A DNA stretch of 64,000 bases, taken from NCBI RefSeq assembly GCF_003018255.1, contig NZ_CP027440.1. One strand, 5' to 3'. This DNA is from Escherichia coli (lineage in GTDB: Bacteria > Pseudomonadota > Gammaproteobacteria > Enterobacterales > Enterobacteriaceae). Shown in pieces: positions 58,732 to 59,411 of the stretch. Each line of letters opens with the position of its first letter. The first letter of the stretch is position 1. The notes beneath the pieces are model-generated. The model ran no database searches and was not told the DNA's origin. It was given only the letters and a program-made list of their open reading frames with translations. Made by a program: the position numbers and the translations under genes.

Positions 58732-59106
58732 ATGAAAAAGGATCTGAAAACGCTGGCGCTGGCCAGACTGTCAGGGTTTCGTCATAAAACGGTGAAGGTG
58801 CCGGAATGGGGTAATGTCAGCGTGGTGCTGCGGGAGCCTTCGGCAGAGGCCTGGTATCTGTGGCAGGACGTGCTCAATGGTGATGGAGAGGATGACGATA
58901 CCCTGTCGGTGGTGGCGAAAACCCGCCGTAACCTGGAAGCGGATGTGACGCTGTTCTGCGATGTCCTGTGTGATACGGACCTGCAGCGGGTGTTCACTCC
59001 GGACGACCGTGAGCAGGTGCTGGCCGTCTATGGTCCGGTACATGCCCGGTTGCTGCGTCAGGCACTGGAACTGATCGCTGATGCAGGGTCGGCCAGAAAA
59101 AAGTAG
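58732..59106 (+). CDS. tail assembly chaperone (gpG-like)
   Basis: Start MKKDLKTLALARLSG; ends at slippery A_AAA_AAG heptamer then TAG. Confidence 0.65.
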   Translation: MKKDLKTLALARLSGFRHKTVKVPEWGNVSVVLREPSAEAWYLWQDVLNGDGEDDDTLSVVAKTRRNLEADVTLFCDVLCDTDLQRVFTPDDREQVLAVYGPVHARLLRQALELIADAGSARKK

Positions 59107-59411
59107 CCCGCCCGGAAATTCGCTTTCTGATGCGACTTGCGCTCCGTCTGGGGCGCACCTTATCCGAACTGCGCCACAGCCTGAGTGCGAGCGAGGCGAT
59201 GATGTGGATGGAGTTCGACAGGATATCCCCGCTGGGTGATGAGCGCGGGGATATCCGTAATGCACAGATCGTGAAAGCGGTTTTCGGGGCACAGGGGATG
59301 AATGTTGCACTGAAGGACGCCATGCTCTGCTGGGGCGAGGATGAGGATAAACCGGAGGTGGATCCGTTTGCGGCGCTGGAAGACGCGCTGAGCTTTGCAG
59401 CACAGTCATGA
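59100..59411 (+). CDS. tail assembly chaperone extension (gpT-like), expressed by -1 programmed frameshift from the gpG-like ORF
   Basis: A_AAA_AAG at 59097-59103; -1 frame continues ...KVARPEIRFLMRLALRLGRTLSEL... into ORF 59130-59411. Confidence 0.55.
   Translation, partial: KVARPEIRFLMRLALRLGRTLSELRHSLSASEAMMWMEFDRISPLGDERGDIRNAQIVKAVFGAQGMNVALKDAMLCWGEDEDKPEVDPFAALEDALSFAAQS

What the first reader, a model, noticed from the sequence alone, without database searches (positions are those of the whole stretch)
59090..59140. Programmed -1 frameshift site in the tail assembly chaperone
The gpG-like ORF ends ...GCC AGA AAA AAG TAG. The heptamer A_AAA_AAG (59097-59103) is a classic -1 slippery site, and the -1 frame continues without a stop into the gpT-like ORF (59130-59411), reproducing the conserved G/GT frameshift of long-tailed phages.
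Basis: partly seen in the sequence, partly recalled or inferred. Interest (0 to 1): 0.3.

Follow-up and report, generated by a model that had tools for sequence, protein, structure and literature searches.

The report
Phage tail chaperone G/GT frameshift site
This is the ordinary, already well-known ribosomal "slip-back" site that lets a lambda/HK97-like E. coli prophage make two tail-assembly chaperones (a short G and a longer G-T fusion) from one stretch of mRNA; it is real but not new, and public annotations of this prophage group simply omit it.

Summary
The G-like chaperone gene (58732-59106) ends GCC AGA AAA AAG TAG, with A_AAA_AAG (59097-59103) in the X_XXY_YYZ phase. The -1 frame is open only from 59082 and runs to the stop at 59409-59411.

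The predicted 226-aa fusion carries Pfam Phage_TAC_1 plus Phage_tail_T. It matches a PHROG of full-length GT proteins end to end. It is 61% identical, without a gap across the junction, to HK97 GT, which GenBank annotates as "translated due to a -1 frameshift" at the same codon (there G_GGA_AAG).

The gene pair lies between the major tail gene and the tape measure gene. About 175 related loci from nine lineages keep the core A_AAG+T. The T-frame peptide is conserved from the slip site onward, upstream of the annotated ATG, and that ATG is missing in Providencia and Moellerella relatives.

I found no conserved stimulatory RNA structure or Shine-Dalgarno-like element. The only recurrent extra feature is a zero-frame stop codon directly after the site.

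Verdict: a genuine member of the known G/GT programmed -1 frameshift, unannotated in RefSeq and GenBank for this prophage group. Interest is low. The fusion protein itself has not been demonstrated.

The parts
58001..58717 (+). Major tail tube protein gene with a C-terminal Ig-like domain. It is the upstream neighbour and the presumed binding partner of the T domain.
   Evidence: Pfam Phage_tail_2 (E=1.4e-5, above its cutoff), weaker Phage_TTP_11, and Ig_3/Ig_2/I-set. Annotated 'major tail subunit' in E. coli RM10042.
58732..59106 (+). G-like tail assembly chaperone gene: 124 aa, the zero-frame product, ending ...SARKK-TAG.
   Evidence: Translation. PF06222 Phage_TAC_1 1-124/124, E=5e-61. phrog_344 'tail assembly chaperone'. 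PGAP CDS at the same coordinates.
59079..59081 (+). TGA stop in the -1 frame. It sets the upstream limit of the region where a productive shift can occur.
   Evidence: -1 frame translation. Frame analysis.
59097..59103 (+). Slippery heptamer A_AAA_AAG in the X_XXY_YYZ phase. The core A_AAG plus the following T is invariant in all relatives.
   Evidence: Sequence. Invariant in 84 E. coli-type sequences. A_AAG+T invariant in 10 lineages and in 80 Klebsiella-type loci. Unique among the 31 AAAAAAG sites of the window.
59104..59106 (+). Zero-frame TAG stop of G, directly abutting the heptamer. It is a possible 'shifty stop' enhancer.
   Evidence: Sequence. A stop directly follows AAG in the E. coli, Morganella, Yersinia, Symbiopectobacterium and Klebsiella lineages, but not in Providencia, Moellerella or HK97, where it lies 5 codons later.
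59103..59411 (+). T-frame segment read after the -1 shift: 102 codons, VARPEIRFLMRLALRLGRTL...AAQS, plus TGA at 59409-59411.
   Evidence: Translation. PF06223 Phage_tail_T. phrog_337 from residue 4. K2, V3, P6, F10 and L11 invariant upstream of the ATG (alignment A4).
58732..59411 (+). Span encoding the predicted GT fusion (226 aa): G residues 1-124 joined to the 102-aa T segment, with base 59103 read twice.
   Evidence: phrog_14766 2-224/224, E=1e-85. 60.9% identity to HK97 GT over 225 aa, ungapped at the junction.
59130..59132 (+). ATG used by PGAP and GenBank as the start of a separate 'T' gene. Probably an internal Met codon rather than a start.
   Evidence: No SD-like purine run in the 12 nt upstream (CGCTTTCTG). 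The codon is Leu in the Providencia and Moellerella relatives, while the peptide upstream of it is conserved.
59420..59443 (+). Hairpin AACCGC-TGAG-GCGGTT followed by a T run, between the T stop and the tape measure start. It resembles an intrinsic terminator at a moron-insertion spot.
   Evidence: Sequence. Fold -11.8 kcal/mol, z=-2.0. HK97 has the gp15 moron plus an annotated terminator here. Relatives carry YebO-like inserts here.
59460..62702 (+). Tape measure protein gene (1080 aa). It is the downstream neighbour and the presumed binding partner of the G domain.
   Evidence: Pfam TMP_3, Phage_HK97_TLTM and Tape_meas_lam_C. PGAP annotation.

Best explanation
This is the programmed -1 ribosomal frameshift site of an HK97/lambda-type tail assembly chaperone pair in a lambdoid E. 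coli prophage.

Most ribosomes translating the G-like gene (58732-59106) read ...AGA AAA AAG and terminate at TAG (59104-59106). This gives the 124-aa chaperone G.

A minority slip back one base. They do so with the single E. coli tRNA-Lys on AAA (59098-59100, P site) and on AAG (59101-59103, A site), and re-pair on AAA AAA (59097-59102). They then read GTA GCC CGC... in the -1 frame as far as TGA (59409-59411). This gives a 226-aa G-T fusion with the junction ...SARKK-VARPEIRFLM...

By analogy with lambda, many copies of G and a few of GT coat the tape measure protein (59460-62702). The T domain then recruits the major tail protein (58001-58717) to start tube polymerisation. Neither chaperone ends up in the virion.

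Shown here: the sequence anatomy, family membership, synteny, and conservation of the site and of the trans-frame peptide.

Inferred: that slippage occurs, that its rate is a few percent, and the roles of G and T.
For: Anatomy. The heptamer is in phase. The frame overlap is 25 nt with no alternative slippery motif. The -1 frame is open to 59411.

Families. G is PF06222 and T is PF06223, the family that includes lambda gpT. The fusion matches phrog_14766 end to end.

Synteny. The order major tail protein, G, T, tape measure is seen here and in all relatives.

Annotated precedent at the same codon. HK97 GT is a joined CDS noted 'translated due to a -1 frameshift', with heptamer G_GGA_AAG. KS9 gp30 is a joined CDS with A_AAA_AAA. 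The window GT is 60.9% identical to HK97 GT, ungapped through the junction.

Nucleotide-level selection.
- AAAAAAG+TAG is invariant in 84 E. coli-type sequences although flanking bases vary.
- The codon supplying the first A encodes R, K or E in different lineages but always ends in A.
- A_AAG+T is the longest invariant run in a 10-lineage alignment.

Protein-level selection in the new frame. K-V-x-x-P-x-x-x-F-L is invariant from the slip site, upstream of the annotated ATG. That ATG is absent in Providencia and Moellerella.

Literature. A_AAA_AAG is the most shift-prone heptamer tested in E. coli, which has a single tRNA-Lys for AAA and AAG. The lambda G:GT ratio of about 30:1 is needed for tail assembly (review PMC5009743).
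Against: - No protein, ribosome-profiling or reporter data exist for this prophage or its close relatives.
- RefSeq and GenBank annotate G and T as two separate genes.
- An ATG at 59130 could in principle start T on its own.
- No conserved stimulatory 3' structure or 5' SD-like element was found, so efficiency cannot be predicted.
- In the Klebsiella clade the heptamer has decayed to A_GCA_AAG. Tandem two-tRNA slippage therefore cannot be the whole story for the family.
Confidence: 0.92

Rival explanations
1. The same -1 shift and the same product arise by single-tRNA (P-site) slippage at A_AAG, promoted by the adjacent stop codon (a 'shifty stop'). Peptidyl-tRNA-Lys on AAG (59101-59103) waits while TAG (59104-59106) is slowly decoded by release factor. 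It slips to AAA (59100-59102), and GTA is then read. This differs from the best explanation only in the mechanistic step.
For: The zero-frame stop directly abuts AAG in 5 of 8 lineage types. In 80/80 Klebsiella-type loci the site is GCA AAG TAA with only a 10-nt frame overlap, so only A_AAG+stop remains. A_AAG tetranucleotide shifting is documented at A_CGA_AAG and at G_CGA_AAG in IS1222. The amino-acid sequence cannot distinguish the two routes (PMC5009743).
Against: HK97, Providencia and Moellerella keep a full heptamer with the stop 5 codons later, so the stop is not required family-wide. The window has a perfect heptamer, for which tandem slippage is the established route.
Confidence: 0.25
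2. T is an independent gene translated from ATG 59130, as PGAP and GenBank annotate it. The heptamer is then incidental.
For: An ATG exists at 59130, and most annotations call a 93-aa 'phage tail assembly protein T' there.
Against: - There is no SD-like sequence upstream.
- The 9 T-frame codons between the G stop and the ATG are conserved as protein: V3, P6, F10 and L11 are invariant across 40-67%-identical homologues.
- The ATG is Leu in Providencia and Moellerella. There the first ATG lies inside the conserved domain.
- PHROG and HK97 GT homology runs straight through the junction.
- The review's account of lambda names gpG and gpGT as the two products of this gene pair (PMC5009743).
Confidence: 0.04
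3. The fusion arises by transcriptional slippage. RNA polymerase adds one extra A in the A6 run (59097-59102), and standard translation of that mRNA gives the identical ...ARKKVARP... product.
For: Inserting one A gives exactly the same protein, as the sequence shows. The 68%-identity E. coli clade has an A8 run.
Against: Productive bacterial slippage is described for runs of about 9 A or T (PMC5009743), and the window has only 6. HK97 (G_GGA_AAG) and Klebsiella (GCA AAG) have no A run yet keep the same frame architecture. The conserved feature is therefore a ribosomal slip core, not a homopolymer.
Confidence: 0.04
4. Chance: an A-rich Lys-Lys C-terminus that happens to resemble a slippery site.
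For: AAAAAAG is over-represented in the window overall, 31 sites against 14 expected.
Against: The expectation for an in-phase copy in the 25-nt overlap is about 1.5e-3. The site is conserved across about 175 loci, and HK97 has an annotated frameshift at the same codon.
Confidence: 0.01

Closest known systems
Phage HK97 gp13 (G) and the gp13-14 fusion (NP_037708 / NP_037707, annotated 'translated due to a -1 frameshift')
   Same: Same Pfam families (PF06222 + PF06223). 60.9% identity over the whole fusion with no gap at the junction. Same gene order. The shift is at the homologous codon (ARE-K|V against ARK-K|V). Both heptamers end in A_AAG.
   Different: The HK97 heptamer is G_GGA_AAG, and its G continues 5 codons (SQPPA) past the site. 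Here the heptamer is A_AAA_AAG and the stop abuts it. HK97 has the gp15 moron between T and the tape measure gene. Here only a terminator-like hairpin remains.
Phage lambda gpG / gpGT (Levin, Hendrix & Casjens 1993; Xu, Hendrix & Duda 2004, 2013, 2014, as cited in PMC5009743)
   Same: A -1 shift near the 3' end of G, between the major tail gene V and the tape measure gene H. The T domain is in the same Pfam family, PF06223. The presumed function is a G:GT ratio that controls tail initiation and length.
   Different: Lambda gpG is PF06894 (Phage_TAC_2), not PF06222. There is no BLASTP similarity between the window GT and lambda G or T. The lambda heptamer is G_GGA_AAG and lies several codons before the G stop.
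E. coli dnaX tau/gamma frameshift cassette
   Same: Identical heptamer A_AAA_AAG, decoded by the single tRNA-Lys.
   Different: dnaX reaches about 50% efficiency through a 5' SD-like element and a 3' stem-loop. Neither is conserved here: AGGG at 59085-59088 is AGAG in most relatives, RNAalifold finds no consensus structure, and the local hairpins are not significant. The dnaX shift truncates the product, whereas this one extends it.
A_AAG tetranucleotide sites (IS1222 G_CGA_AAG; B. subtilis cdd A_CGA_AAG)
   Same: The Klebsiella-clade relatives of this locus (A_GCA_AAG, A_GAA_AAG) have only this minimal core at the homologous position.
   Different: The window itself has the full heptamer. The link is to its relatives, not to the window.
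Burkholderia phage KS9 gp30/gp31
   Same: A homologous G and T pair (about 40% identity) with a joined -1 CDS in RefSeq at the homologous C-terminal Lys-Lys.
   Different: The heptamer is A_AAA_AAA. G continues for a further 12 codons in the zero frame. In this GC-rich genome the -1 frame is open throughout G.

Membership tests
G/GT-type tail assembly chaperone with programmed -1 frameshift (lambda paradigm) | Two reading frames located between the major tail protein gene and the tape measure gene | tested here: met
   The order 58001-58717 (tail tube), 58732-59106 (G), 59103-59411 (T), 59460-62702 (tape measure protein). The order is the same in 8 diverse relatives.
G/GT-type tail assembly chaperone with programmed -1 frameshift (lambda paradigm) | The second frame is -1 relative to the first and overlaps its 3' end | tested here: met
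   The -1 frame is open 59082-59411, giving a 25-nt overlap with G.
G/GT-type tail assembly chaperone with programmed -1 frameshift (lambda paradigm) | An in-phase slippery heptamer X_XXY_YYZ inside the overlap | tested here: met
   A_AAA_AAG at 59097-59103.
G/GT-type tail assembly chaperone with programmed -1 frameshift (lambda paradigm) | Site and frame architecture conserved in homologues independently of the flanking sequence | tested here: met
   84 E. coli-type sequences, 80 Klebsiella-type loci, 6 other enterobacterial lineages, HK97-like phages and KS9.
G/GT-type tail assembly chaperone with programmed -1 frameshift (lambda paradigm) | T is not expressed on its own (no independent initiation) | tested here: inconclusive
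   There is no SD sequence before ATG 59130. The peptide upstream of the ATG is conserved, and the ATG is absent in two lineages. Absence of initiation cannot be proven from sequence.
G/GT-type tail assembly chaperone with programmed -1 frameshift (lambda paradigm) | Detection of the trans-frame fusion protein, and a low GT:G ratio | not testable with these tools
   This needs western blotting, mass spectrometry or a reporter assay. No published data were found.
HK97 gp13 / gp13-14 sequence family (Pfam PF06222 Phage_TAC_1 + PF06223 Phage_tail_T) | Scores above the Pfam gathering cut-off for both domains, and full-length similarity to HK97 GT | tested here: met
   PF06222 204.5 bits (cut-off 25). 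PF06223 69.9 bits (cut-off 25.9). HK97 scores in the same families. BLASTP 60.9% over 225 aa, E=1e-100.
Lambda gpG sequence family (Pfam PF06894 Phage_TAC_2) | Sequence match of the G part to PF06894 or to lambda gpG | tested here: not met
   No PF06894 hit for the window G. No BLASTP hit to lambda G at E<=10. Lambda G is PF06894. Only the T domain shares a family with lambda.
dnaX-type high-efficiency A_AAA_AAG cassette | A 5' Shine-Dalgarno-like stimulator about 10 nt upstream of the heptamer | tested here: not met
   AGGG at 59085-59088 is present in the window but is AGAG in 62 of 84 close relatives and absent in the other lineages.
dnaX-type high-efficiency A_AAA_AAG cassette | A stable, conserved 3' stem-loop 5-9 nt downstream | tested here: not met
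   The local hairpin at 59109-59134 is -7.3 kcal/mol with z=-0.9. The strong hairpin at 59138-59157 starts 34 nt downstream and is not conserved. The RNAalifold consensus is -1.8 kcal/mol. There is no Rfam frameshift element.

The most novel reading that the evidence does not exclude
The stop codon directly abutting the A_AAG core may be a selected part of the signal (a 'shifty stop'). The GT:G ratio in this phage group would then be set partly by termination efficiency: TAG/RF1 in the E. coli clades and TAA elsewhere. The Klebsiella clade, where the heptamer has decayed to A_GCA_AAG-TAA with only a 10-nt frame overlap, would be a natural minimal tetranucleotide-plus-stop frameshift signal in an essential phage gene. 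That would make this family a ready-made natural series for dissecting heptamer against tetramer-plus-stop slippage: G_GGA_AAG-sense, A_AAA_AAG-sense, A_AAA_AAG-stop and A_GCA_AAG-stop.
Probability: 0.3. Interest if true: 0.3.

Novelty: already known. Interest (0 to 1): 0.1.

Why it matters
The main value is for annotation. In the five annotated records I opened for this E. coli prophage group and its close lambdoid relatives, G and T are two separate genes and the GT fusion is missing. The match tables show the same two-product naming across many more records, including Stx-converting phages such as YYZ-2008 and 2851. The segment is present in 1,245 of 5,426 complete E. coli genomes.

The 'T' protein entries that start at Met-59130 are probably artefactual N-terminal truncations of a trans-frame domain.

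Biologically the site is expected to set the G:GT ratio needed for correct tail assembly. This adds nothing new to the lambda/HK97 model.

The only mildly interesting by-product is the natural variation of the signal at one homologous codon: G_GGA_AAG, A_AAA_AAG, A_AAA_AAA and A_GCA_AAG, with or without an abutting stop.

Tried and rejected
1. Downstream RNA stimulator.
- Folding 59104-59200 gave -40.9 kcal/mol with z=-2.9. The structure is long-range and not conserved.
- RNAalifold on 10 lineages found only 5 pairs at -1.8 kcal/mol.
- Short-range hairpins are not significant in the window or in relatives.
- The 8-bp hairpin at 59138-59157 starts 34 nt from the site and is broken in the Klebsiella, Yersinia and Providencia relatives. 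It lies in the part of the T frame that encodes the conserved LALRxGRT motif. I rejected it as a stimulator.

2. Upstream SD-like element. AGGG (59085-59088) is not conserved. Rejected.

3. Rfam. No frameshift element was found. The only hit near the region is a sub-threshold isrK-like match at 59373-59440 (27 bits against a gathering score of 50), driven by the terminator hairpin. I treat it as not meaningful.

4. Literature. No held paper links Stx-type phages, tail assembly chaperones and frameshifting. Xu et al. 2004 is not held, so I could not check whether this prophage group was in their table. My search for the systematic E. coli heptamer and tetramer study (reference B195 of the review) found nothing. 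I used the Atkins et al. 2016 review instead.

5. 'Fused' G-T proteins in the protein database as evidence of natural in-frame fusions.
- P0003 and P0012 have exactly the predicted KKVA junction. They come from single, indel-ridden assemblies.
- P0001 has an 11-nt deletion.
- P0101 is a gene call running in the open -1 frame of a GC-rich genome.
These are consistent with the predicted junction but are not independent evidence.

6. Mapping the window onto E. coli RM10042 coordinates for context. The tail segment is 100% identical, but the window is not fully colinear with that genome: the tRNAs are offset by 710 bp. I did not transfer RM10042 coordinates to distant parts of the window.

Full report
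**Observation**

The G-like ORF starts at ATG 58732, preceded by AAGGGG, one base after the TAA of the major tail gene. It ends TCG GCC AGA AAA AAG TAG at 59106.

A_AAA_AAG occupies 59097-59103 in the X_XXY_YYZ phase. The -1 frame is closed by TGA at 59079-59081 and then open from 59082 to TGA at 59409-59411. A productive shift can therefore only happen within 25 nt, and the heptamer is the only slippery motif there.

The predicted products are G (124 aa) and GT (226 aa, junction ...SARKK-VARPEIRFLM...).

AAAAAAG occurs 31 times in the window, against 14 expected. The chance of an in-phase copy in the six available positions is about 1.5e-3. Of the 31 copies, only this one combines a long upstream ORF, a stop directly after the heptamer and a long (102-codon) -1 extension.

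**What it is**

- G is a full-length PF06222 Phage_TAC_1 protein (E=5e-61).
- The -1 segment carries PF06223 Phage_tail_T (E=3e-19).
- The conceptual fusion matches phrog_14766, a family of full-length GT proteins, over 2-224 of 224 positions (E=1e-85).
- The flanking genes are a tail tube protein with an Ig-like C-terminal domain (58001-58717) and a 1080-aa tape measure protein (59460-62702). Head-tail connector, head closure, HK97-gp10-like and tail terminator genes lie upstream.

The DNA is 100% identical to a prophage of E. coli O43 RM10042. It is about 99% identical to Pankowvirus YYZ-2008 and to many Stx-converting phages. The 761-bp segment occurs in 1,245 of 5,426 complete E. coli genomes. 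All five annotated records of this group and its close relatives that I opened list G and T as two separate CDSs with no slippage.

**Comparative evidence**

The closest characterised relative is HK97. Its gp13 and the joined CDS NP_037707, noted 'translated due to a -1 frameshift', belong to the same two Pfam families. HK97 GT is 60.9% identical to the window's conceptual GT over 225 residues, with no gap at the junction. The HK97 heptamer, G_GGA_AAG, sits at the homologous codon. Burkholderia phage KS9 also has a joined CDS, with A_AAA_AAA at the same place.

The site in related loci:

| Lineage | Site | Zero-frame stop |
|---|---|---|
| 84 E. coli-type sequences | AAAAAAG, invariant while neighbouring bases vary | TAG abuts the site |
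| Morganella, Yersinia, Symbiopectobacterium | A_AAA_AAG | abuts the site |
| Providencia, Moellerella | A_AAA_AAG | 5 codons later |
| Klebsiella, all 80 viral contigs retrieved | GCA AAG TAA, with a frame overlap of only 10 nt | abuts the site |
| Klebsiella, a further locus (L085) | GAA AAG TAA | abuts the site |

The invariant core across ten lineages is A_AAG followed by T. It is the longest invariant run in the alignment.

The codon that donates the first A encodes Arg, Lys or Glu in different lineages but always ends in A (G in HK97, matching its G_GG). This points to selection on the nucleotide rather than on the amino acid.

In the new frame the peptide K-V-x-x-P-x-x-x-F-L is invariant from the slip site onward. 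It lies upstream of the ATG that annotators use as the T start. That ATG is a Leu codon in Providencia and Moellerella, where the first ATG falls inside the conserved domain. There is no Shine-Dalgarno sequence before ATG 59130. T is therefore very probably made only as the C-terminal part of GT, as the review describes for lambda (PMC5009743).

**Mechanism**

The best-supported mechanism is tandem -1 slippage of tRNA-Lys from AAA-AAG to AAA-AAA. E. coli has a single tRNA-Lys for both codons. A_AAA_AAG was the most shift-prone heptamer tested with synthetic constructs in E. coli and is the site used by dnaX (PMC5009743).

I looked for dnaX-like stimulators and found none that is conserved.
- The AGGG at 59085-59088 is AGAG in most close relatives.
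- The downstream folds are either not significant or too far from the site.
- RNAalifold finds no consensus structure.
- Rfam has no frameshift-element match.

The only recurrent extra feature is a zero-frame stop codon directly after AAG, seen in five of eight lineage types. This suggests a contribution from P-site slippage while termination is pending (a 'shifty stop'). It would also explain how the Klebsiella clade manages with a tetranucleotide. A_AAG-only sites are known at A_CGA_AAG and G_CGA_AAG.

Transcriptional slippage would give the same protein. It is unlikely, because the run is only six A's and relatives without any A run keep the same architecture.

By analogy with lambda, G and the G part of GT bind the tape measure protein. 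The T part recruits the tail tube protein. A low GT:G ratio is needed for tail assembly. This functional part is inference from the lambda work, not something tested here.

**Comparison with known systems and novelty**

This works like lambda G/GT and is a sequence-level member of the HK97 gp13/gp13-14 family. Its T domain shares a Pfam family with lambda gpT. Its G domain does not share one with lambda gpG, which is PF06894. It shares the dnaX heptamer but not the dnaX stimulators.

Nothing here departs from the conserved tail-chaperone frameshift described by Levin et al. 1993 and Xu et al. 2004, as cited in PMC5009743 and PMC10885494. The finding is real, ordinary and already explained. Its practical consequence is an annotation correction for a very common E. 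coli prophage module.

The residual uncertainty, about 8%, is only that no experiment has shown the fusion protein for this phage group.

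Noticed in passing
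window 53881-56466 (repeat at 55408-55997): The portal gene encodes 861 aa, but the Phage_portal domain covers only residues 54-382. The C-terminal extension contains a 162-bp (54-aa) tandem repeat, 3.6 copies at 95% identity, followed by a further domain with a faint CBM_5_12-like hit. In RM10042 the gene sits after a 1,938-bp 'major capsid protein' gene, an unusual capsid-then-portal order.
   Followed up: partly
window 37959-38171 and 39931-40910: There are five copies of the Rfam sRNA family STnc100 (120-172 bits, gathering score 47). Four lie in a 270-bp tandem array at 40100-40777, and each unit begins with a terminator-like hairpin, GCCCCTCTCCGGAGGGGC followed by a T run. The array lies in a stretch with no annotated CDS in RM10042. 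It explains the cluster of AAAAAAG hits at 40117-40653.
   Followed up: partly
window 59420-59443: A hairpin AACCGC-TGAG-GCGGTT followed by a T run lies between the T stop and the tape measure start. It folds at -11.8 kcal/mol. The consensus terminator scan did not list it. HK97 has the gp15 moron and an annotated terminator at this spot. Klebsiella and Symbiopectobacterium relatives carry YebO-like inserts there. A sub-threshold isrK-like Rfam hit (59373-59440, 27 bits against 50) is probably just this hairpin.
   Followed up: partly
window 57921-57937 and 57964-57978: Two terminator-like hairpins with T runs lie just upstream of the major tail gene. HK97 has an annotated 'putative terminator' at the same position. 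The number found (2) is no more than the shuffled expectation (1.8).
   Followed up: no
window 63000-64000: GC content drops from about 0.57 to 0.34. An OmpC-family porin gene starts at about 63235 and runs off the window end. It is inserted between the tail gene at 62695-63036 and the minor tail protein L gene. RM10042 annotates it as ompC. This looks like a moron inside the tail operon.
   Followed up: partly
window 36984-37145: Two prophage tRNA genes lie here. ARAGORN calls them tRNA-Met (CAT) and tRNA-Arg (TCG). PGAP labels the equivalent pair in RM10042 tRNA-Ile and tRNA-Arg; a CAT anticodon modified to lysidine would read Ile. Their position is offset by 710 bp relative to RM10042, so the window is not fully colinear with that genome.
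   Followed up: no
window 31548-31722: There is a strong Rfam sok antitoxin RNA match (118 bits). RM10042 annotates hokD in the same early-region neighbourhood of the prophage, consistent with a hok/sok-type type I toxin-antitoxin locus.
   Followed up: no
protein database entries P0001, P0003, P0012 (relatives of window 58732-59411): A few database 'proteins' are in-frame G-T fusions. P0003 and P0012 have exactly the predicted KKVA junction, probably from 1-nt indels in the A run of error-prone assemblies. P0001 fuses the frames through an 11-nt deletion that removes TAG CCC GCC CG. The A run is thus an assembly or mutation hot spot.
   Followed up: partly
window 58001-58717 compared with L001 1532-2317: Start-codon calls for the major tail gene differ between records. 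RefSeq YYZ-2008 gives 786 nt, starting inside the preceding gene's end. PGAP and the LC567835 record give 717 nt. LC567835 also starts G at the upstream ATG that corresponds to window 58684.
   Followed up: no
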